A stretch of DNA of 64,000 nt from an uncultured Dehalococcoidia bacterium (GTDB taxonomy: Bacteria; Chloroflexota; Dehalococcoidia; Bin125): NCBI GenBank assembly GCA_958295515.1, contig CATQGW010000001.1:1006658-1070657 (forward strand). Reading direction: 5' to 3'. Numbering within the stretch: position 1 is the stretch's first letter; every line of letters begins with the position of its first letter. Made by a program: the position numbers and the translations under genes. A model generated the notes under the pieces. The model saw only the letters and a list, made by a program, of their open reading frames with translations. It did not search any database and had not been told where the DNA came from. Positions 2,777-62,894 of this stretch are shown piece after piece.

Positions 2777-3502
2777 TCAGGTGAAGAGGTGGTCGAAGGG
2801 GAGGAGTTTTGCGGCGGCGATGGCTTCCGGGGGCATTGGGGGTGGGGGGCCGGCGAGGAAGTCGGCGTTTTCTTCGAGGAATTTGACTGCCTCGGCGTAC
2901 AGTTCGGGGGAGATTTGGGAATTTTCGGTTTCGGGCGTGTTTTTCGGGTTGGGGGCGGGGTTTCTATCTGGTCGGGGCGGGTTGGGGGTGTTCGGTGTTG
3001 TTCGATCCTGTTCGGCTGTGTTCGATTGTGTTCGATCCTGTTCGATTGTGTTCGACTGTGTTCGATCCTGTTCGATGGTGTTCGATTGTGTTCGATCCGG
3101 TTCGGGGGCGGTGAGTTGGTCGTCGGGGTAGTTGAGGGTCGGCTCGGGGCGGTCGGAGAGGCTGTGTTTGTGGATTTGGTTGGCGGTCTGGCGCAGTTCG
3201 CGGCAGAGCGGGAGCAGGTCGTTGAGTTGTGAGGCGTAGCGGTAGCTTCCGTCGGGCTGGGGTTGGAGGGTGGCGGCGAGGGCGAACTGGAGGGCGGCGA
3301 GGGAGGAGAGCAGGGCGTCGTTGGCGGCCTGGCGGGTGATGTCGTGCCAGTGTTGTTCGAGCAGGCGGAGGTCTGCTTGGATGGCGGCGGGGTCGGCGTC
3401 GAGGTTGGCGGCGATGTTTTGGGTGGTGGCGCCGGCCTGGCGGAGGTAGTGGGCGCTGAGGATGCGCTGGCGTTGTTGTGGGGAGATGGTGGCGGCACTC
3501 AT
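2777..3502 (-). CDS. Hypothetical protein with an N-terminal HTH-like region and an internal DRTQSNTIEQ-type repeat. It has an inverted paralog at 62217..62894.
   Basis: A 241-aa ORF in the track. Its N-terminus, MSAATISPQQRQRILSAHYLRQAGATTQNIAANL, is ~85% identical to the 62217..62894 product. The upstream ~80 bp is also shared. The central part is encoded by 10-bp tandem DNA repeats. Confidence 0.6.
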   Translation of the reverse strand: MSAATISPQQRQRILSAHYLRQAGATTQNIAANLDADPAAIQADLRLLEQHWHDITRQAANDALLSSLAALQFALAATLQPQPDGSYRYASQLNDLLPLCRELRQTANQIHKHSLSDRPEPTLNYPDDQLTAPEPDRTQSNTIEQDRTQSNTIEQDRTQSNTAEQDRTTPNTPNPPRPDRNPAPNPKNTPETENSQISPELYAEAVKFLEENADFLAGPPPPMPPEAIAAAKLLPFDHLFT

Positions 3503-3575
3503 GTTCTGTATTGGACGCTGGTGGGGTGGGTTTTGTCAAATTGGGTGGGGTGTTGGGGGTTGCATTGGGGGGTGG
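2830..3575. repeat. Left copy of a ~740-bp inverted duplication; the partner is at ~62135..62840.
   Basis: The reverse complement of 3503-3560 (...gcaacccccaacaccccacccaatttgacaaaacccaccccaccagcgtccaatacagaacATG) is near-identical to 62150-62219. The encoded proteins align over ~200 aa and diverge only at the extreme C-terminus. Confidence 0.75.
2990..3110. repeat. About 12 tandem copies of a 10-bp unit (TGTTCGATYS) inside a coding region.
   Basis: Direct reading gives tgttcgatcc tgttcggctg tgttcgattg tgttcgatcc tgttcgattg tgttcgactg and so on. The unit length is not a multiple of 3, so three units encode one 10-aa peptide repeat. Confidence 0.85.
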
Positions 3576-3589
3576 GGGGGTGGGGCGGG

Positions 3590-4560
3590 TCGTTTTCGTC
3601 ATTCCCGCGAACGCGGGAATCTCGTGGCGTGGCTTCGGAGGTTGGGCGGGGGAGATTCCCGCTTTCGCGGGAATGACGGAAAGGGGGCTTGGGAGGCGGC
3701 ACGGCGAGATACCCGCGGCAAGCGCGGGTATGACGGATCTGTGGGCGCGGGGGTGGCGGATCTATAGGCGCGGGTGTGACGGAAAGGGGGGCAGGGCTTG
3801 GGAGGTTGCGCGGGGGGATTCCCGCGTTCGCGGGAATGACGGAAAGGAGGGGGCGGGAATGGTCGCCAAAGGGATGTGGGGATGGCGGAAGTGAGGGGGC
3901 CGGTGTGCGACGGAGGTGGGGGTGGGGCTTGGAGGGTGGGACGGCGAGATACCCGCGGCGGGGCGCGGGTATGACGGATCTATGGGTGCGGGGATGACGG
4001 AAGAGGGGGTGCGGGGTGACGGAAGTGAGAGCGGGGCTTGGGAGGTTGTGCGGGGGAGATTCCCGCTTTCGCGGGAATGACGGAATTTTGGGAGCGCTGG
4101 AGACGGTGCGGGGGCTTGGTGCTGCTCACGGCGAGATACCCGCGGCAAGCGCGGGTATGACGGATCTGTGGGTGCGGGTGTGACGGATCTACGGGGGCGG
4201 GGATGGCGGAGGTGAGGGGGCAGGTGTGCGGCGGAGGTGGGGGTGGGGCTTGGAGGGTTGGGCGGGGGGGATTCCCGCTTTCGCGGGAATGACGGAATTT
4301 TGGGAGCGCTGGAGACGGCGCGGGGGCTTGGTGCTGCTCACGGCGAGATACCCGCGGCAAGCGCGGGTATGACGGATCTATGGGCGCGGGTGTGACGGAT
4401 CTACGGGGGCGGGGATGACGGAAGTGAGGGGGCGGGTGTGTGGCGGAGGTGGGGGTGGGGCTTGGAGGGTTGGACGGCGAGATACCCGCGGCGGGGCGCG
4501 GGTATGACGGATCTATGGGGGCGGGTATGACGGAAGAGGGGCGCGGGAGTGACGGAAGAG
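3590..4560. repeat. Tandem array (~210-bp period, 4-5 units) of composite hairpin elements, type A plus type B (GATTCCCGCKTTCGCGGGAATGACGG).
   Basis: The block 4060-4270 is repeated almost exactly at 4270-4480. Each unit contains one ATTCCCGC/GCGGGAAT hairpin, one ATACCCGCG/CGCGGGTAT hairpin and G-rich spacers. The ORFs the track predicts here (3776..3997, 3980..4360 and others) are periodic artefacts. Confidence 0.85.
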
Positions 4561-25199: not shown

Positions 25200-25545
25200 T
25201 TTCAGCGCTGAGTTTGTCACGGCTGTTGGTGCTGGTCACGGCGAGATACCCGCGGCAAGCGCGGGTATGACGGTGGTGGGGGCGCGGGTATGACGGTGGG
25301 TTCGACACGGATGTTGGCGCTGGTCAGGGCGAGATACCCGCGGCAAGCGCGGGTATGACGGTGGTTGGGGCACGGGTGTGGCGGTGGGTTCGACACGGAT
25401 GTTGGCGCTGGTCAGGGCGAGATACCCGCGGCAAGCGCGGGTATGACGGTGGTAGGGGTGCGGGCGTGGTGGTGGGTTCGACACGGATGTTGGTGCTGGT
25501 CAGGGCGAGATACCCGCGGCAAGCGCGGGTATGACGGTGGTGGGG
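25200..25545. repeat. Four tandem copies of a ~90-bp unit containing the type A hairpin.
   Basis: The unit ttcgacacggatgttggcgctggtcagggcgagatacccgcggcaagcgcgggtatgacggtgg... repeats at 25240, 25330, 25420 and 25505. Confidence 0.85.
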
Positions 25546-26210
25546 GCGCGAGTGCGGAGCGGAGCGCTGCTTCGACGTCGGATTCTTCGAGATCGAAGTC
25601 GGAGGCGATGAAGGCGATCGATTCGTCGGCGCGCCAGCGCTTGACGATGGTTTCGAGCAGGAGGGCCGCGGTTGAGGAAGGTGACCGCGCCGCCGGCGAA
25701 GCGCGGATCGATCATCAGCGGCGCGCTGTCGCCGGCTGGGAAGAGGCGCCGCGCCCATGTGCCCGCTGCGGCATTCTGAGCGCAATCGTCGTACTCGATC
25801 GCGCGTGTCGCGAGCTCGGCGAACTTGGGCAGGGGCGGCAGTGATGTCGGCCATTCGTCATCGTGGCCAGGGCTGCTCGCGTTGGAGTCGCCGCAGCCCA
25901 GCGTGTTCAATCTGAGTTCGGCGAAGGGATGCTCAACTCCCCAGCGCTCGCGGGCGAACTCGCGGCTTTGGCGAAGCTGCTCGACGCTGAGTCCGCAGGC
26001 GCGGAGGCGGCGCGCGACGATCAGCTCGACGAGTTCGAGGAACGAGAGGTGGAACGTTGCCTGGTCCGGGCGGCGATCGGCGAATAGCGGCGGCGCGGCG
26101 CGGTGGCCGCGAAACCAGCGGACGACGGTGGCGGTCGTCGTCTCTGCGAGGCGGGCGGCTTCGGCTGTCGTGTACAGCGATGTCGTGCGGGCGTCGTTGG
26201 GCGATCTCAT
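25500..26210 (-). pseudogene. MerR/excisionase-type HTH fused to DUF433, interrupted by a -1 frameshift near 25665.
   Basis: Frame 1 gives MRSPNDARTTSLYTTAEAARLAETTTATVVRWF...IDPRFAGGAVTFLNRG and then nonsense. A second frame continues LLETIVKRWRADESIAFIASDFDLEESDVEAALRS, which is the DUF433 C-terminal signature. Both frames terminate inside the 90-bp repeat array. Confidence 0.5.
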
Positions 26211-31787: not shown

Positions 31788-32369
31788 TTGGCAGGGCGCG
31801 GCGGTGCGGGTATAACCCTGGGCGTGGATACGAAGAGCGGGCGACGCCGCGCAGACGGCAACGCGGACGAGATCGCGGCGCTGCTCGGCGACGAGCGGGC
31901 GGTGTCGCGCGAGGCGGGCGCGCGTCGGGCGGCGCGCGACGGCTCGGCGCGGCACCTGCGAACGCTCAACGAGCTGGCGCTCGGCGATCCGTCGCAGCGG
32001 GTGCGGCGCGAGGCGGCGGCCTCGATTGGCCGCATCGCGGCCGAGCTGCCGGAGGCGTTTGCGATGCTGGCGGGGCTGGCCGAGCACACGGATCCGGGGG
32101 TGGTGCTGCAGGCCGCGCGTGGGCTGATGCGCAGCGGTCGGGGCTGCACACAGCGGGCGATCGCCGAACCGCTGCTGGATCGCCTCGCGGCGCATCCCAA
32201 CGAGGTCGTGCGCGACTTCGTGGCGGTCGAGCGGGGGCGCGCAGCCCGCGGTCATAACGCGCGTGCGGGGGGGGGGGGGGGTAAAAGCGCACCGCGACGC
32301 GCCGGCCTGGCTGGAGAATCGACTGGTGCAGGGCGACGCGCTCGAGCTGCTGCGGCGCTTGCCCGATGA
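31788..32369 (+). CDS. HEAT / PBS-lyase repeat protein. The C-terminal tail beyond the G tract is probably not native.
   Basis: TTG start. Repeats present: DPSQRVRREAAASIGRI, DPGVVLQAARGL and HPNEVVRDFVA. The reading frame passes through the G15 tract, encoding GGGGG. Confidence 0.45.
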   Translation: MAGRGGAGITLGVDTKSGRRRADGNADEIAALLGDERAVSREAGARRAARDGSARHLRTLNELALGDPSQRVRREAAASIGRIAAELPEAFAMLAGLAEHTDPGVVLQAARGLMRSGRGCTQRAIAEPLLDRLAAHPNEVVRDFVAVERGRAARGHNARAGGGGGKSAPRRAGLAGESTGAGRRARAAAALAR

Positions 32370-34154: not shown

Positions 34155-36206
34155 ATGCCGATGCCTATCGCAGCCGTGTTGAGCGCCAGGACCGTGGTCG
34201 GCGGCATTGCGCTCGCCGCGTTGCTGCTGTTGGTTGGCGTTGTTCTCGGTATCGCAGGCGGTTGGCAACAGGCGGAAGCTCAGGAGGAAGCCCGCGCGGT
34301 CGCGATCAGCGTCGGCGAATCGCACGCCTGCGCGCTGCTCGACTCGGGCGCGATCGAGTGCTGGGGCGACAACCGGTACGGTCAAACGGATGCGCCGAAC
34401 GGTCGCTTCAGCGCGGTCAGCGCGGGAGATCGGCATAGCTGCGGGCTGCGGGAGGGGGGCGAAGTCGAATGCTGGGGATGGAACGGGTTCGGCCAAACGG
34501 ATACACCGAGCGGCCGCTTTAGCGCGGTGAGCGCGGGTTTGTTCCACAGCTGTGGGCTGTGGAAGACGGGCGAAGTCGAGTGCTGGGGCGACAACCGGTA
34601 CGGTCAAACGGCTGCGCCGAGCGGTCGTTTCAGCGCCGTCAGCACGGGCAGCGCGCACAGCTGCGGGCTGCGGAAGACGGGTGCCGTCGAGTGCTGGGGA
34701 AGTAATGAGTACGGCCAAGCAGGTGCGCCGAGCGGTCGCTTCAGCGCGGTCAGCGCAGGCTGGGGGCACAGCTGCGGACTGCGGGAGACGGGTGCCGTCA
34801 AATGCTGGGGATACAACAGGTCTGGCGAAGCGGCTGCGCCGAGCGGTCGCTTCAGCGCGGTCAGCGCGGGCAGCTCGCGCAGTTGCGGGCTGCGGGAGAC
34901 GGGCGCGGTCGAGTGCTGGGGATGGAACGAGGACGACCAAACGGCTGCGTCGGGTGGTCGCTTCAGCGCGATCAGCGCAGGCTGGTCGCACATTTGCGGG
35001 CTGCGGGAGACGGGCGCGGTCGAGTGCTGGGAAGCCAACAATGCCGGCCAAGCGGCTGCGCCGAGCGGTCGCTTCGGCGCGGTCAGAGCGGGAAATTTGC
35101 ATAGCTGCGGGCTGCGGGAGACGGGCGCGGTGGAGTGCTGGGGAGCCAACAGTGCCGGCCAAACGGGTACACCGAGCGGCCGCTTCAGCGCGGTGAGTGC
35201 GGGCGGGTGGCACAGTTGCGGGCTGCGGGAGACGGGCGCGGTTGAGTGCTGGGGAGCCAACGCCTTCGGCCAAACGGCTGCGCCGAGCGGTCGTTTCAGC
35301 GCCGTCAGCACGGGCAGCGTGCACAGTTGCGGGCTGCGGGAGACGAGCGTGGTCGAGTGCTGGGGGTACAACGGGGGCGGCCGGACGGATGCGCCGAGCG
35401 GTCGCTTTAGCGCGGTCAGCGCAGGCGCTGCGCACAGCTGTGGACTGCGGGAGACGGGCGAGGTCGAGTGCTGGGGACGCAACTTGGACGGCCAAGCGGA
35501 TGCGCCGGGCGGTCGCTTCGGCGCGGTCAGCGCGGGCTGGCGTCACAGTTGCGGGCTGCAGGAGACCGGCGCGGTTGAGTGCTGGGGATATAACAGGTCC
35601 GGCCAAACGGATGCGCCGAGGGGTCGTTTCAGCGCGGTCAGCGCGGGCGAGTATCACAGCTGTGGGCTGCGGGAGACGGGCACGATCGAGTGCTGGGGGT
35701 ACACATTCGACGGACAGACGCAGCCGCCCACAGGGAAGCATCTTCAAATCAGCGCTGGTGCGAATCACGCCTGCGCGCTGAGCGAAGGCGGAACGGTCTC
35801 TTGCTGGACGATCTTCAACGGCGCTGCCGATGTGCCCGCCTGGTTGCGCGAGCCCAGCGTTGAGGCGGTGGGCGATTCTGCCAGCGGTCGGATTGTGGCG
35901 CGCAGGCTGGCCGATGGGCGCACTGAGTTTGCCTGGCTGCCTGCCGGGAGTGAGGAGCGCATCTTGCCGCGCTCGCGCTACTTCCCCACGGGCGCCGCCG
36001 TGGACCGCTGGCTGCGCTCCAGCCCGATCGAGGTTGACGGCGTTGAGATTGGGCGGATCAACGCGCGGCTGCTGGCGAATGGGCGGATTGAGTTGGCGTT
36101 TACGCCGACGGGCGGCGAGCGGATTCTGCCGCCGTCGCGCTACTTCCCGGTGAATGCCGGCGTGGACCGCTGGTTGCGGAGCACGGAGATCGATCCGGGC
36201 GGCTGA
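34155..36206 (+). CDS. Membrane-anchored RCC1-like repeat protein (~21 repeats of ~26 aa).
   Basis: N-terminal TM helix, then the consensus repeat GxVECWGxNxxGQTxAPSGRFSAVSAGxxHSCGLRET. The DNA is 78-bp tandem repeats. The many overlapping antisense ORFs in the track are artefacts. Confidence 0.7.
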   Translation: MPMPIAAVLSARTVVGGIALAALLLLVGVVLGIAGGWQQAEAQEEARAVAISVGESHACALLDSGAIECWGDNRYGQTDAPNGRFSAVSAGDRHSCGLREGGEVECWGWNGFGQTDTPSGRFSAVSAGLFHSCGLWKTGEVECWGDNRYGQTAAPSGRFSAVSTGSAHSCGLRKTGAVECWGSNEYGQAGAPSGRFSAVSAGWGHSCGLRETGAVKCWGYNRSGEAAAPSGRFSAVSAGSSRSCGLRETGAVECWGWNEDDQTAASGGRFSAISAGWSHICGLRETGAVECWEANNAGQAAAPSGRFGAVRAGNLHSCGLRETGAVECWGANSAGQTGTPSGRFSAVSAGGWHSCGLRETGAVECWGANAFGQTAAPSGRFSAVSTGSVHSCGLRETSVVECWGYNGGGRTDAPSGRFSAVSAGAAHSCGLRETGEVECWGRNLDGQADAPGGRFGAVSAGWRHSCGLQETGAVECWGYNRSGQTDAPRGRFSAVSAGEYHSCGLRETGTIECWGYTFDGQTQPPTGKHLQISAGANHACALSEGGTVSCWTIFNGAADVPAWLREPSVEAVGDSASGRIVARRLADGRTEFAWLPAGSEERILPRSRYFPTGAAVDRWLRSSPIEVDGVEIGRINARLLANGRIELAFTPTGGERILPPSRYFPVNAGVDRWLRSTEIDPGG

Positions 36207-44739: not shown

Positions 44740-45645
44740 CCCCCGTGATTCCCGCTCGGGGGCGGGAATGACGGAAAAGAGGAGTCGGAGGTTGAACGGC
44801 GAGATACCCGCGCTCCTCCGCCGTCATTGCCGCGCCCCGCCGCGGCAATCTCGCCGAGTTCAACACGGATGTTGGTGCAGGTCACGGCGAGATACCCGCG
44901 GCAAGCGCGGGTATGACGGAGTGTGTGTGGCGGGTGTGTGACGGAGCGGGCGGGTGTGTGACGGAATTGGTGGGCGGGAATGACGGAAAAGGGGAGTGGG
45001 AGGTTGAACGGGGAGATACCCGCGCTCCTCCTCCGTCATTGCCGCGTTCCGCCGCGGCAATCTCGCTGCGTTCAACACGGATGTTGGTGCAGGTCGCGGC
45101 GAGATACCCGCGGCAAGCGCGGGTATGACGGAGTGTGTGGCGGGTGTGTGACGGAGCGGGCGGGTGTGTGACGGAATTGGTGGGCGGGAATGACGGGAAG
45201 GGGGGGTCGGAGGTTGAACGGCGAGATACCCGCGCTCCTCCTCCGTCATTGCCGCGCCCCGCCGCGGCAATCTCGCTGCGTTCAACACGGATGTTGGTGC
45301 AGGTCACGGCGAGATACCCGCGGCAAGCGCGGGTATGACGGAGTGTGTGGCGGGTGTGTGACGGAGCGGGCGAGTGTGTGACGGAATTGGCGGGCGGGAA
45401 TGACGGAAAAGGGGGGTCGGAGGTTGAACGGCGAGATACCCGCGCTCCTCCTCCGTCATTGCCGCGTTCCGCCACGGCAATCTCGCTGCGTTCAACACGG
45501 ATGTTGGTGCAGGTCACGGCGAGATACCCGCGGCAAGCGCGGGTATGACGGAGTGTGTGGCGGGTGTGTGACGGAGCGGTCGGGTGTGTGACGGAATTGG
45601 TGGGCGGGAATGACGGAACTTGAGGTGGGCGGGGATGACGGAGGT
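44740..45645. repeat. Tandem array (4 copies of ~210 bp) of nested palindromes: type B, type C (ATTGCCGCG-N6-CGCGGCAAT) and type A.
   Basis: The unit ggttgaacggcgagatacccgcgctcctcc...gtcattgccgcg...cgcggcaatctcgc...gttcaacacggatgttggtgcaggtcacggcgagatacccgcggcaagcgcgggtatgacgg... repeats every 210 bp. The track ORFs here are offset by exactly 210. Confidence 0.9.
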
Positions 45646-46668: not shown

Positions 46669-46686
46669 TGGGGGGGGGGGGGGGGG
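46669..46686. repeat. Homopolymeric G18 tract followed by TAAAAG, ~100 bp upstream of the yhhQ-like gene.
   Basis: Direct count across gaattGGGGGGGGGGGGGGGGGGtaaaagttgg. Confidence 0.9.
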
Positions 46687-52554: not shown

Positions 52555-52640
52555 CGTCATTCCCGCGAACGCGGGAATCTCGTGGCGGTACCTGGGAGGT
52601 AGCGCGAGGGAGATTCCCGCTCGGGGGCGGGAATGACGGG
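52555..52640. repeat. Two type B hairpin elements.
   Basis: gtcattcccgcgaacgcgggaatctcg and gattcccgctcgggggcgggaatgacgg. Confidence 0.8.
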
Positions 52641-52737
52641 AAAGAGCGCGGGCATGACGGAAGAGGGGTGGGAATGACGGAAAAGGGGATGGCGGCGGGT
52701 GGCTGTAGGCGGCTGGGGTTCTGGGGGGTTGGCTGGC

Positions 52738-60223: not shown

Positions 60224-62056
60224 ATGCCTATCTCAGCCGTGTTAGGCGCAAAGACTGTAGTCGGAGGGCTTACGCTCGCCGCGTTACTGCTGTTGGTCGG
60301 CGTTGTTCTCGGCATCGCAGACGGTTGGGAACAGGCGGAAGCACAGGGTGGAGATCGTGAGGTCGCGATCAGCGTCGGCCTCTGGCACGCCTGCGCGCTG
60401 CTCGACTCGGGCGAAGTCGAATGCTGGGGAGACAACCGGGACGGCCAAACGGCTGCGCCGAGCGGTCGCTTTAGCGCAGTCAGCGCGGGCAGCTCGCATA
60501 GCTGCGGACTGCGGGAGACGGGCGCGGTCGAGTGCTGGGGAGCCAACCGGGACGGCCAAACGGATGCACCGAGCGGTCGCTTCAGCGCGGTCAGCGCGGG
60601 CACGTCGTACACCTGTGGGCTGCGAGAGACGGGCGCGGTCGAGTGCTGGGGAGCCGACTGGTTCGGCGAAGCGGATGCGCCGAGCGGTCGCTTCAGCGCG
60701 GTCAGCGCGGGCGCGTTCCGCAGCTGCGGGCTGCGCGAGACGGGCGCGGTCGAATGCTGGGGAAACAACCGGAATGACCAAACGGCTGCGCCGAGTGGTC
60801 GTTTCAGCGCAGTCAGCGTGGGCGCGTCGCACAGTTGCGGGCTGCGGGAGACGGGCACAGTCGAGTGCTGGGGAGACAACCGGAACGGCCAAACGGCTGC
60901 GCCGAGCGGTCGCTTCAGCGCGGTCAGCGCGGGCACGTCGTACACCTGTGGGCTGTGGGAGACGGGCGCGGTCGAGTGCTGGGGTTACAACTGGAACGGC
61001 CAAACGGCTGCGCCGAGCGGTCGCTTCAGTGCGGTCAGCGCGGGCGTGAACCACAGTTGCGGGCTGCGGGAGACAGGCGAAGTTGAGTGCTGGGGCGGCT
61101 ACGAGCAAGGCCAAACGGCTGCGCCGAGCGGTGACTTCAGCGCGGTCAGCGCGGGCGCGTGGCACAGCTGCGGGCTGCGGGAGACGGGCGCGGTCGAGTG
61201 CTGGGGGGACAACTATTCCGACCAAGCGGATGCGCCGAGCGGTCGCTTCAGCGCGGTCAGCGCGGGCTGGTCGCACAGCTGCGGGCTGCGGGAGACGGGC
61301 GCGGTCGAGTGCTGGGGAGACAACAGGTACGGCGAAGCGGATGCGCCGAGCAGTCGCTTTAGTGCGGTCAGCGCGGGTGGGTTGCACAGCTGCGGGCTGC
61401 GGGAGACGGGCGCGGTCGAGTGCTGGGGAGGCAGCAGGTACGGCGAAGCGGATGCGCCGAGCGGTCGCTTCAGCGCGGTCAGCGCGGGCGCGGAGCACAG
61501 CTGCGGATTGCGAGAGACGGGCGCGGTCGAGTGCTGGGGATGGAACGAATACGGCCAAACGGATGCGCCGAGCGGTCGTTTCAGCGCGGTCAGCGCGGGC
61601 GCGGAGCACAGCTGCGGATTGCGGGAGACGGGCGCGGTCGACTGCTGGGGAGACAACAGCCGCGGCCAAACGGATGCACCGAGCGGTCGCTTCAGTGCGG
61701 TCAGCGTGGGCTGGTCGCACAGCTGCGGGCTACGGGAGACGGGCGCGGTCGACTGCTGGGGATACGAGTTCGACGGGCAGGCACAACCAGCCGGCAAGCA
61801 TCTTCAAATCAGCGCTGGTGTGTATCACGCCTGCGCAGTGAGCGAAGACGGAACCGTCTCCTGCTGGATGATCTTCAACGGCGCTGCCGATGTGCCGGCC
61901 TGGCTGCGCCCAGCCAGTCTCCCGTCCACCGGCACAGGCGGCCTGCTGGACCGCCGCATTGGCGCTCTGGAGCTGGGTGTAATCGCCCTCGTGGCGCTAG
62001 GCATCCCGACGCTATCGCTGCTCACGCTGTCGGCATGGCGTCGGAGCCGTCCATAG
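60224..62056 (+). CDS. RCC1-like repeat surface protein with a C-terminal LPSTG sortase sorting signal.
   Basis: Paralog of the 34155..36206 product. The C-terminus is ...ASLPSTGTGG, then a hydrophobic span and RRSRP. Confidence 0.7.
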   Translation: MPISAVLGAKTVVGGLTLAALLLLVGVVLGIADGWEQAEAQGGDREVAISVGLWHACALLDSGEVECWGDNRDGQTAAPSGRFSAVSAGSSHSCGLRETGAVECWGANRDGQTDAPSGRFSAVSAGTSYTCGLRETGAVECWGADWFGEADAPSGRFSAVSAGAFRSCGLRETGAVECWGNNRNDQTAAPSGRFSAVSVGASHSCGLRETGTVECWGDNRNGQTAAPSGRFSAVSAGTSYTCGLWETGAVECWGYNWNGQTAAPSGRFSAVSAGVNHSCGLRETGEVECWGGYEQGQTAAPSGDFSAVSAGAWHSCGLRETGAVECWGDNYSDQADAPSGRFSAVSAGWSHSCGLRETGAVECWGDNRYGEADAPSSRFSAVSAGGLHSCGLRETGAVECWGGSRYGEADAPSGRFSAVSAGAEHSCGLRETGAVECWGWNEYGQTDAPSGRFSAVSAGAEHSCGLRETGAVDCWGDNSRGQTDAPSGRFSAVSVGWSHSCGLRETGAVDCWGYEFDGQAQPAGKHLQISAGVYHACAVSEDGTVSCWMIFNGAADVPAWLRPASLPSTGTGGLLDRRIGALELGVIALVALGIPTLSLLTLSAWRRSRP

Positions 62057-62084
62057 AGCTGGGTACGGCTGCCCCCCTTTCCCG

Positions 62085-62135
62085 TCATTCCCGCCCCCTT
62101 TCCGTCATTCCCGCGAAAGCGGGAATCCCCCCGCC
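62085..62135. repeat. Type B hairpin elements abutting the right inverted-repeat copy.
   Basis: gtcattcccgcc...gtcattcccgcgaaagcgggaatcc. Confidence 0.8.
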
Positions 62136-62840
62136 CCACCTCCCAACCCCGCAATGCAACCCCCAACACCCCGCCCAATTTGACAAAACCTACCCCACCA
62201 GCGTCCAATACAGAACATGAGTGCCGCCACCATCTCCCCCCAACAACGCCAGCGCATCCTCCACGCCCACTACCTCCGCCAAACCGGCGCCGGCCCCAAA
62301 AGCATCGCCGCGAATCTCCAGGCCGACCCGGCCGTCATCCAAGAAGACCTCCAACTGCTCGAACAGCACTGGCACGACATCGCCCGCCAAGCCGCCAACG
62401 ACGCCCTGCTCGCCTCCCTCGCCGCACTCCAGACCGCCCTCACCAACTTCCTCCAACCCCACCCCGACGGACGCTACCGCTACGCCCCCAAGCTCGAAGA
62501 GCTCCTCCCCCTCTGCCGCGAACTGCGCCAGATCGCCCACCAACTCCACAAACACAGCCAGATCGATCGCCCCGAATCCCCCACTGACCACCCCGACGAC
62601 CAGCTCGCCGCCCCCGAACCGGATCGATCAAAATCGATCAGGATCGATCACAGTCGATCACAGTCGATCACAATCGAACACAATCGAACAACATCGAACA
62701 CCCCCAAACCGCCCCGACCAGATAGAAACCCCACCCCCACCCCCCCGAAAAGCACCCCCGAAACCGAAAATTCCCAAATCTCCCCCGAGCTGCGCGCCGA
62801 GGCACTCGAATTCCTCAAAGAAAACGCCGCCCTCCCCGCC
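62135..62840. repeat. Right copy of the ~740-bp inverted duplication.
   Basis: See the 2830..3575 entry. Confidence 0.75.
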
Positions 62841-62894
62841 GCCCCCCCGCCCCCGAGCGGGAATCTTCTGGCGGGCAATGAGCTCGTCCGCTAA
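62217..62894 (+). CDS. Hypothetical protein, inverted paralog of the 2777..3502 product, with a 10-bp coding microsatellite at 62612-62700.
   Basis: 225 aa. Starts MSAATISPQQRQRILHAHYLRQTGAGPKSIAANL. Confidence 0.6.
   Translation: MSAATISPQQRQRILHAHYLRQTGAGPKSIAANLQADPAVIQEDLQLLEQHWHDIARQAANDALLASLAALQTALTNFLQPHPDGRYRYAPKLEELLPLCRELRQIAHQLHKHSQIDRPESPTDHPDDQLAAPEPDRSKSIRIDHSRSQSITIEHNRTTSNTPKPPRPDRNPTPTPPKSTPETENSQISPELRAEALEFLKENAALPAAPPPPSGNLLAGNELVR

What the first reader, a model, noticed from the sequence alone, without database searches (positions are those of the whole stretch)
2990..3110. 10-bp coding microsatellite (unit length not a multiple of 3) in both paralogs, with different copy numbers
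The left copy has ~12 units (TGTTCGATYS). The right copy has ~9 units of the same family on the reverse complement (62612-62700). Gain or loss of one unit shifts the frame, and three units add one DRTQSNTIEQ-like decapeptide. The copy-number difference between paralogs shows the tract is slippage-active. This is potentially a third kind of phase-variation or antigenic-variation device in this window.
Basis: seen in the sequence. Interest (0 to 1): 0.6.

Follow-up and report, generated by a model that had tools for sequence, protein, structure and literature searches.

The report
Frame-shifting 10-bp repeat in regulator genes
A real, fast-changing 10-base tandem repeat sits in the flexible middle of a multi-copy DNA-binding protein gene of an uncultured bacterium. 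Closely related strains carry 5 to 18 units, and some counts shift the reading frame and replace the protein's tail, but true on/off switching and any surface or antigen role are not shown.

Summary
Window 2988-3097 (-) holds 11 clean 10-bp units and 62622-62701 (+) holds 8, each with one degenerate unit on either side. Both lie inside paralogous genes (2777-3502 -, 241 aa; 62217-62894 +, 225 aa).

The tract is slippage-active. At the orthologous left locus, six co-occurring strains with about 99% identical flanks carry 5, 8, 11, 11, 11 and 12 units. The 12-unit allele is frame-shifted to a 182-aa product. Across 45 family members the counts run from 5 to 18, and 44 of the 45 differ by whole units.

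The unit count modulo 3 sets the frame:
- 5, 8, 11 or 14 units give the full-length protein.
- 12, 15 or 18 units stop at a TAG just after the tract.
- 7, 10 or 13 units give a long alternative tail.

About 78% of copies are in frame, and most changes are 30-bp (one decapeptide) steps, including the difference between the two window copies.

The protein is a cytoplasmic helix-turn-helix (HTH) protein, and the tract encodes a disordered linker. Antigenic variation is therefore rejected. Reversible phase variation stays plausible but untested, because no read-level data were available.

The parts
2777..3502 (-). Left paralog: a 241-aa gene (P0001) with an N-terminal HTH/helical domain (aa 1-116), a disordered linker (aa 117-194) and a short C-terminal helix (aa 199-211).
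   Evidence: ORF list. Exact match to P0001. dN/dS is 0.15-0.35 against orthologs and paralogs in this frame. AlphaFold2 model. The C-terminal SPELYAEA(V/L)xFL motif is conserved even in the 50%-identical subfamily.
2988..3097 (-). Left tract: 11 clean 10-bp units (nnTCGAACAn), organised as 30-bp super-units that encode DRTQSNTIEQ x3 plus DRTTPNT (aa 136-172).
2978..2987 (-). Degenerate 3' edge unit of the left tract (CCCCAACCCG).
3098..3107 (-). Degenerate 5' edge unit of the left tract (CCCCGAACCG).
2964..2966 (-). TAG stop within the conserved CCAGATAGA, 21 nt downstream of the clean tract. It is used when the unit number is 0 mod 3 (frame F1; products end ...APTR*).
   Evidence: (ORF 2964..3602). 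The ortholog P0021 in strain s23 has 12 units and ends here.
3503..3577 (-). About 75 bp of upstream sequence conserved in all copies. It contains TTGACA and runs to ...TCCAATACAGAAC directly before the ATG, with no Shine-Dalgarno sequence. It is a putative promoter, possibly for a leaderless transcript.
   Evidence: Multi-copy alignment. The consensus promoter scan found no site passing its criteria, so promoter function is inferred only.
62217..62894 (+). Right paralog: a 225-aa gene (P0024), subfamily B. Its extreme C-terminus differs because the duplicated segment ends there.
62622..62701 (+). Right tract: 8 clean units. Five consecutive units carry TCGATCA and three carry TCGAACA. The best self-match register is 10 bp (19-nt exact run).
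62723..62725 (+). F1-frame TAG stop after the right tract.
62740..62746 (+). C7 run just after the tract, a second frame-shift-prone site. The right-locus ortholog P0026 (strain s21) is in frame through the tract and then shifts here.
   Evidence: sequence; P0026 ...RNPAPTPRKTPLKPKIPKSPP.... That one C is missing in P0026 is inferred from the protein.

Best explanation
The tract is a hypermutable coding minisatellite with two nested periods. A 10-bp unit (nnTCGAWCAn) read in all three frames gives a 30-bp, 10-aa super-unit (DRTQSNTIEQ-like). It lies in the intrinsically disordered linker of a lineage-specific, multi-copy HTH DNA-binding protein.

Unit number changes by slipped-strand mispairing or unequal exchange between units. 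This mechanism is inferred from the pattern of whole-unit differences. Most events are 30-bp steps that only lengthen or shorten the linker (5, 8, 11 or 14 units).

Occasional single-unit steps change the frame. They leave the N-terminal DNA-binding half intact and replace the conserved C-terminal helix module. The replacement is either an immediate stop (unit number 0 mod 3) or a long Pro/Ser/Lys-rich alternative tail (unit number 1 mod 3).

Selection, or the 30-bp mutational bias, keeps most copies at unit number 2 mod 3. I regard the out-of-frame alleles as recurrent by-products. They are probably tolerated because there are about 8 paralogs per genome. I do not regard them as a dedicated switch, although the architecture could work as one.
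For: Variation at the same locus:
- The left locus (Iso_dh, a 214-aa gene, the HTH gene, MetH) carries 11, 11, 11, 8, 5 and 12 units in six strains.
- Their Iso_dh genes are 98.7-99.5% identical.

Whole-unit changes:
- 44 of 45 family members give an integer unit number, from 5 to 18.
- Frame follows unit number modulo 3 exactly.

Activity in the 10-bp register:
- The extra unit in strain s23 is a duplicated AGTCGAACAC.
- L005 has 14 perfect AATCGATCAC units.
- An A-to-T unit variant occupies five adjacent units in the right copy.

Predominance of 30-bp steps:
- TRF scores period 30 higher than period 10, and self-matching is best at offset 30.
- The left-locus series runs 5, 8, 11.
- P0049 and P0057 differ as 15 versus 18 units.
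- The window paralogs differ by 30 bp.

The gene is real:
- dN/dS is 0.15-0.35 in this frame.
- The C-terminal motif is conserved in a 50%-identical subfamily.

The protein is an HTH protein with a disordered linker:
- The AlphaFold2 model has pLDDT 76-94 for aa 1-116 and below 40 across the tract.
- Remote relatives pass the Pfam cutoffs for HTH_23, HTH_11 and HTH_DeoR at aa 5-47.

Frame bias: 35 of 45 members are in frame, against one third expected from unbiased single-unit steps.
Against: - No read-level or clonal data exist, so rates and reversibility are unknown.
- Frame-shifted copies show no other decay. Their N-terminal dN/dS is like that of in-frame copies, and their post-tract region is fully intact when read in the original frame. 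A maintained, reversible switch would also produce this pattern. However, at 1-2% strain divergence the test has little power.
- The tract has persisted in relatives only 37-50% identical (P0030-42, P0066, P0069). This could indicate selection for the tract itself.
- The 45 members are 90%-identity cluster representatives and are not independent, so the frame statistics are only indicative.
Confidence: 0.55

Rival explanations
1. True contingency (phase-variable) locus. Reversible gain or loss of single 10-bp units acts as a three-state switch. It toggles each of about 8 HTH regulators between full length, DNA-binding-only (truncated) and alternative-tail forms, creating combinatorial regulatory diversity among cells and strains.
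For: - The unit length is not a multiple of 3 and lies inside the coding sequence.
- Unit number is polymorphic at one orthologous locus among ~99%-identical strains, and one allele is out of frame.
- 10 of 45 family members are out of frame, 9 of them by whole units.
- Out-of-frame alleles keep an intact downstream coding region and a constrained N-terminal domain.
- A stop codon lies immediately after the tract in one alternative frame.
- One paralog has a perfect 14-unit array.
- The tract is retained across diverged subfamilies.
Against: - The window tracts are imperfect at the 10-bp level: 72% identity, with a 10-nt longest exact run in the left copy. Classical phase-variable simple sequence repeats are near-perfect.
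- Variation is dominated by frame-preserving 30-bp steps.
- 78% of copies are in frame.
- At the fusion-gene locus, 9 of 10 strains share 11 units.
- The tract lies mid-gene, not near the 5' end.
- The product is not a surface or restriction-modification protein.
- There is no evidence of within-clone heterogeneity.
Confidence: 0.3
2. The 10-bp periodicity serves a DNA-level function, and the peptide repeat is incidental. Possible functions are a helically phased array of binding sites for the HTH protein itself or another factor, or a cluster of GATC/ATCGAT methylation sites.
For: - A 10-bp period matches one helical turn (established knowledge).
- Subfamily-B units contain GATC and ATCGAT.
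- N6_N4 methyltransferase/HNH genes lie near two loci.
Against: - The TCGAWCA motif is absent from the conserved upstream region of the family.
- In the window the phased motif occurs only inside the two tracts.
- Unit number varies freely from 5 to 18.
- Subfamily A lacks GATC in most units.
- No binding data exist. This idea is untested speculation.
Confidence: 0.05
3. Artefact or non-coding sequence. The ORFs are chance open frames in C-rich, stop-poor DNA, and the unit-number differences are assembly errors.
For: All three frames of the coding strand are open across the region, and local GC skew is extreme at 0.45.
Against: - dN/dS is well below 1 in this frame.
- The C-terminal motif is conserved at the amino-acid level in distant subfamilies.
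- Remote homologs are HTH proteins in other lineages.
- The related contigs are multi-megabase hifiasm-named contigs. Long accurate reads would span a 70-200-bp tract, which is an inference from the contig names.
- The differences are clean whole units embedded in otherwise collinear sequence.
Confidence: 0.03
4. Antigenic variation of a surface-exposed repeat protein.
For: The decapeptide copy number is variable.
Against: - The N-terminus is a polar HTH helix bundle with no hydrophobic signal or transmembrane stretch (sequence).
- Relatives hit HTH families.
- No signal-peptide predictor was run.
Confidence: 0.02

Closest known systems
Simple-sequence-repeat contingency loci of host-adapted bacteria. 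Examples are the tetra- and pentanucleotide tracts in Haemophilus and Neisseria lic, opa and mod genes. Repeat surveys accept periods up to decanucleotide (PMC5231331). Phase-variable mod genes are reviewed in PMC5909438.
   Same: - An intragenic tandem repeat whose unit is not a multiple of 3.
- Whole-unit gain or loss changes the frame.
- Unit number differs among very close strains.
- Downstream coding capacity is preserved in out-of-frame alleles.
   Different: - The unit is 10 bp, the upper limit of what such surveys consider, and it is imperfect in most copies.
- It is nested in a codon-compatible 30-bp period, so most events preserve the frame.
- It lies mid-gene, so the DNA-binding half is always made.
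- The gene is a cytoplasmic HTH protein in a multi-copy family.
- Switching frequency and reversibility have not been measured.
Coding VNTRs or minisatellites whose copy number varies between strains, such as the tandem-repeat copy-number variation reported for M. tuberculosis (PMC12817950, title and abstract).
   Same: Tandem-repeat copy-number polymorphism inside genes among near-identical strains. In-frame steps change the length of a repetitive protein segment.
   Different: Here the base unit is 10 bp, so the same array can also shift the frame. The same tract is shared by about 8 paralogs per genome and by a second gene family (P0046-55).
Multi-state outcomes of slippage-induced frameshifts in Mycoplasma bovis mod genes (bioRxiv 10.64898/2026.04.01.715767; abstract only read).
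   Same: Repeat-induced frameshifts need not be binary on/off. Different frames can give different products.
   Different: The organism, gene class and repeat type differ. In the present case no functional data exist.

Membership tests
Repeat-mediated phase-variable (contingency) locus | Tandem repeat with a unit not divisible by 3, located in a coding region or promoter | tested here: met
   10-bp units lie inside ORFs 2777-3502 (-) and 62217-62894 (+).
Repeat-mediated phase-variable (contingency) locus | Unit-number polymorphism at the same locus among closely related strains | tested here: met
   5, 8, 11, 11, 11 and 12 units at the left locus in six strains with 98.7-99.5% identical Iso_dh.
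Repeat-mediated phase-variable (contingency) locus | Unit changes switch the reading frame between alleles that are otherwise intact | tested here: met
   The 12-unit allele in strain s23 gives a 182-aa product. The post-tract region of L002, L003 and L004 is intact when read in the original frame.
Repeat-mediated phase-variable (contingency) locus | High-frequency, reversible switching within a clonal population | not testable with these tools
   No reads or clonal lineages are available. Only assemblies of co-occurring strains were compared.
Repeat-mediated phase-variable (contingency) locus | Long, perfect or near-perfect repeat tract (the basis of hypermutability) | tested here: inconclusive
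   The window tracts are 72% identical at offset 10, with longest exact runs of 10 nt (left) and 19 nt (right). Paralog L005 has 14 perfect units.
Antigenic variation by repeat-number change in a surface protein | The product is secreted or surface-exposed | tested here: not met
   The N-terminus is a confidently modelled polar helical/HTH domain with no hydrophobic leader visible in the sequence. No dedicated signal-peptide predictor was available.
In-frame coding minisatellite (VNTR) encoding a tandem peptide repeat | The repeat period is a multiple of 3, with copy-number variation that preserves the frame | tested here: met
   Period 30 scores best. In-frame members carry 1, 2, 3 or 4 extra decapeptides (221, 231 and 241 aa; 224, 234 and 244 aa; 236 aa).
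Helix-turn-helix DNA-binding proteins | Recognisable HTH domain | tested here: inconclusive
   - The window proteins have no Pfam hit.
- Subfamily C (P0031) has sub-threshold HTH_38 and HTH_23 hits.
- Remote relatives found with the family profile exceed the Pfam cutoffs: P0078 scores HTH_23 28.6 (cutoff 24.6), and P0081 scores HTH_DeoR 26.1 (cutoff 21).
- The model shows helices at aa 8-22, 27-33 and 38-50.
- Foldseek against the PDB gave no significant hit; the best matches are HTH regulators at E of 0.6 or higher.

The most novel reading that the evidence does not exclude
A decanucleotide tract, conserved across a whole paralogous family and shared with a second gene family, acts as a reversible three-state switch on the C-terminal module of about 8 HTH regulators per genome. 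It would give co-occurring strains or cells of an uncultured bacterium combinatorial regulatory states, a transcription-factor analogue of phasevarions. It might control the neighbouring eukaryote-like repeat-protein genes (RCC1, FG-GAP).
Probability: 0.15. Interest if true: 0.7.

Novelty: new variant of a known kind. Interest (0 to 1): 0.5.

Why it matters
The tract is a clean natural example of one array with two mutational modes. Frame-preserving 30-bp steps change linker length, and frame-shifting 10-bp steps swap the C-terminal tail.

It occurs in cytoplasmic DNA-binding proteins of an uncultured, high-GC bacterium whose near-identical strains co-occur in one metagenome.

If the single-unit changes prove frequent and reversible, repeat-driven phase variation would extend in three directions. 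It would cover a longer unit than usually studied. It would reach transcription factors rather than surface or restriction-modification genes. It would also apply outside the classical pathogens.

If they do not, the tract is still a sensitive strain-typing marker. It also warns annotators, because 22% of family members are called with frame-shifted or read-through products.

Tried and rejected
- Species-representative genomes (genome contigs): a protein-pattern scan and an exact 29-mer scan both found no relative.
- JGI metagenomes: the family-specific 29-mer found nothing.
- A generic TCGAACA-N3 x4 pattern found 51 loci. All are unrelated 10-bp microsatellites from diverse organisms (GC 23-70%). 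tblastn against them matched only the repeat itself, so they say nothing about this family.
- P0001 and P0065 were not on record for contig look-up.
- Pfam, NCBIfam, PHROGs and PADLOC gave no significant hit for the window proteins themselves. The phrog_645 ('RNase E') hits of remote relatives (E around 1e-6 to 1e-7) span the low-complexity linker, so I did not take them as functional evidence.
- Foldseek against the PDB gave no significant fold match.
- Rfam and tRNA scans of the window were empty, so they gave no taxonomic clue.
- The consensus promoter scan found no sigma-70-type site upstream of the left gene.
- The idea that the gene is a mobile element with terminal repeats was rejected. 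Copies share only about 75 bp upstream plus the ORF, and no terminal inverted repeats are visible.
- A prophage origin was considered and is not supported. A distant relative sits among housekeeping genes.

Full report

Yes. Tandem Repeats Finder reports 2988-3096 as period 10 x 10.9 copies (78% matches, score 127). It reports the same stretch as period 30 x 3.9 copies (89% matches, score 164). The second tract, 62623-62701, is period 10 x 6.5-7.8 copies.

- Read on the coding (-) strand, the left tract is 11 clean units at 2988-3097: GATCGAACAC AATCGAACAC CATCGAACAG, and so on. One degenerate unit sits on each side.
- The right tract is 8 clean units at 62622-62701, also with degenerate edges.
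- The phased motif TCGAWCA-N3 x3 occurs 14 times, only in these two tracts. It occurs 0 times in 100 shuffles.

**2. What carries the tract?**

Each tract lies inside an ORF: 2777-3502 (-), 241 aa, and 62217-62894 (+), 225 aa. The two proteins are 69% identical. The DNA similarity covers about 75 bp upstream plus the ORF.

All three frames of this C-rich strand are open, so I tested whether the ORF really codes for protein.
- Within the subfamily, dN/dS of the pre-tract part is 0.15-0.35.
- The post-tract motif SPELYAEA(V/L)xFL is conserved at the amino-acid level in a subfamily only about 50% identical.

AlphaFold2, run on an 18-sequence alignment, gives the following:
- A confident helical N-terminal domain, aa 1-116, with pLDDT 76-94. 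Helices at 8-22, 27-33 and 38-50 look like an HTH.
- A disordered region, aa 117-194, with pLDDT below 40. It contains the tract at aa 136-172.
- A short helix at aa 199-211 with pLDDT about 80.

The window proteins hit no Pfam family. A profile search of 1.84 billion representative proteins found 73 relatives. Several of these pass the Pfam cutoffs for HTH_23, HTH_11 or HTH_DeoR at aa 5-47. Foldseek against the PDB found nothing significant; the top weak hits are HTH regulators. One distant relative lies among shikimate and pheST housekeeping genes.

The product is therefore best read as a cytoplasmic HTH DNA-binding protein of an uncharacterised family, with the repeat encoding a flexible linker.

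**3. Family and population context**

The close family (55 clusters) is confined to the window's genome and to contigs of one ENA metagenome analysis. That analysis, ERZ19489113, contains several hifiasm-named contigs of 2.8-3.0 Mb (s23, s321, s949, s510, s21 and others).

Their Iso_dh genes are 98.7-99.5% identical to the window's and to each other. These are conspecific strains that co-occur in one sample.

Each genome carries about 8 paralogs at different chromosomal sites, shown by the contig lengths. They fall into groups:
- Subfamily A, the type of the left copy.
- Subfamily B, the type of the right copy.
- Subfamily C, with a degenerate tract of stable length.
- A short form with an internal deletion.
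- A second gene family (P0046-55) that has a different N-terminus fused to the same tract and C-terminal module.

**4. Is the tract slippage-active?**

Yes, on four lines of evidence.

(a) Orthologous locus. At the locus Iso_dh, 214-aa gene, HTH gene, MetH, the unit counts differ between strains:

| Strain | Units |
|---|---|
| window | 11 |
| s510 | 11 |
| s21 | 11 |
| s321 | 8 |
| s949 | 5 |
| s23 | 12 |

The extra unit in s23 is a duplicated AGTCGAACAC. It truncates the product to 182 aa (P0021).

(b) Family-wide counts. I computed the distance between the conserved flanks from the protein sequences. In 44 of 45 members it corresponds to an integer unit number, from 5 to 18 (with P0011 and P0067 added by inspection). 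Frame follows unit number modulo 3 without exception:

| Units | Frame | Outcome | Members |
|---|---|---|---|
| 5, 8, 11, 14 | F0 | full length | 35 |
| 12, 15, 18 | F1 | stop at the TAG in CCAGATAGA, 21 nt after the tract | 5 |
| 7, 10, 13 | F2 | long Pro/Ser/Lys-rich read-through tail | 5 (one irregular) |

(c) One paralog (L005, strain s949) has 14 perfect consecutive AATCGATCAC units.

(d) A unit variant, TCGATCA in place of TCGAACA, occupies five adjacent units in the right copy and blocks of units in other copies. This requires turnover at the 10-bp level rather than the 30-bp level.

**5. Most change preserves the frame**

- Period 30 fits the left tract better than period 10. Self-identity is 81% at offset 30 with a 20-nt exact run, against a 10-nt run at offset 10.
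- The two window paralogs differ by one clean 30-bp indel.
- The left-locus series 5, 8, 11 moves in 30-bp steps.
- Even two out-of-frame cluster-mates differ by three units (15 versus 18).
- At the fusion-gene locus, 9 of 10 strains share 11 units.
- The right window copy is the more frame-shift-prone of the two. Its best register is 10 bp, with a 19-nt exact run.
- By their read-through C-termini, its apparent orthologs carry 7 units (P0044, F2) and 11 units (P0026). P0026 then shifts frame at the C7 run just downstream.

**6. Switch or by-product?**

For a switch:
- Out-of-frame alleles are otherwise intact.
- Their N-terminal dN/dS is the same as for in-frame copies.
- Their post-tract region is a perfect ORF when read in F0.
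- One alternative frame has an immediate stop.
- The tract persists in relatives only 37-50% identical.

Against a switch:
- The units are imperfect.
- 30-bp steps dominate.
- 78% of copies are in frame.
- The tract lies mid-gene.
- The gene class is not surface or restriction-modification.
- At 1-2% strain divergence, intact downstream sequence has little evidential power.

Within-clone heterogeneity, the defining test, cannot be done here. I put 0.55 on 'slippage-prone linker minisatellite whose frame-shifts are tolerated by-products'. I put 0.30 on a genuine reversible three-state switch of the C-terminal module. Antigenic variation is rejected because the protein is not a surface protein.

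**7. Comparison with known systems**

The mechanism class is the familiar repeat/VNTR slipped-strand one. Surveys of contingency loci consider periods up to 10 nt (PMC5231331), and phase-variable mod genes are the best-studied cytoplasmic case (PMC5909438).

This tract differs in four ways:
- It has a decanucleotide unit nested in a codon-compatible 30-bp period.
- Its consequence is a swap of the C-terminal module rather than on/off expression.
- Its host gene is a multi-copy HTH family.
- It occurs in an uncultured bacterium.

I found no paper describing a decanucleotide coding tract acting in phase variation. Two literature searches are not an exhaustive check.

**8. Verdict**

The tract is slippage-active and capable of shifting the frame. 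Its status as a phase-variation device is unproven, and antigenic variation is rejected. I rate it a new variant of a known kind, with moderate interest (0.5).

Noticed in passing
window 3500-4560, 25218-25554, 44760-45642, 52624-52688, 62073-62152: Dense arrays of REP-like elements. They include about 23-bp GGGGCGCGGGTATGACGGATCTA-type repeats, palindromes such as ATTCCCGCGAAAGCGGGAAT, and higher-order repeats of 88, 210 and 212 bp. They flank both HTH paralogs. They are translated into spurious peptides (RHSRESGNP, IPAKAGI) in called ORFs, and even inside the P0046-55 proteins.
   Followed up: partly
window 60224-62056 (+) and 34345-35703; L009:10411-12471: There are RCC1-repeat (eukaryote-like) protein genes with a 111-bp DNA period. 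One sits directly upstream of the right HTH paralog. In strain s21, a copy about 80% identical is inserted into the REP array directly upstream of the left-locus HTH gene, where the other strains have none. An FG-GAP repeat protein precedes another paralog (L003).
   Followed up: partly
window 62740-62746: A C7 homopolymer lies just after the right tract. It appears to be a second frame-shift site: ortholog P0026 is in frame through the tract and changes frame here.
   Followed up: partly
window 32267-32281 and 46670-46686: Perfect G15 and G17 homopolymer runs. I did not examine them.
   Followed up: no
window 2777-3502 (-) versus 62217-62894 (+): The two paralogs are about 86% identical over about 800 bp and lie in inverted orientation about 59 kb apart. 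Recombination between them could invert the intervening segment. I did not compare synteny across the 59 kb between strains.
   Followed up: no
window 3100-3502 (-), codons 1-135; L002, L006-L009: The pre-tract part of the HTH gene differs by 4-6% between strains whose flanking Iso_dh differs by 1.3% or less. Paralogs within one strain are as similar to each other as orthologs between strains. This suggests gene conversion among copies. Amino-acid differences cluster at aa 34-43, the predicted third HTH helix region.
   Followed up: partly
L002:3323-5599: In strain s23, two tandem IS30-like transposase genes (HTH_38 + rve) are inserted between the 214-aa gene and the HTH gene. This is the same strain whose left-locus allele is frame-shifted.
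   Followed up: no
L005:5001-5447 (strain s949): This is the short-form paralog, which has an internal deletion of the helical domain. It carries 18 units, 14 of them perfect AATCGATCAC, each containing GATC and ATCGAT. An N6_N4 methyltransferase/HNH gene lies about 1.2 kb upstream.
   Followed up: partly
P0046-P0055 (357-402 aa; not in the window): A second gene family has an unrelated N-terminus (MNDDTLQRLRDAYARR...) but ends with the same 10-bp tract and the same C-terminal SPELRAEALEFLEEN module. The tract and C-terminus therefore behave as a transferable module.
   Followed up: partly
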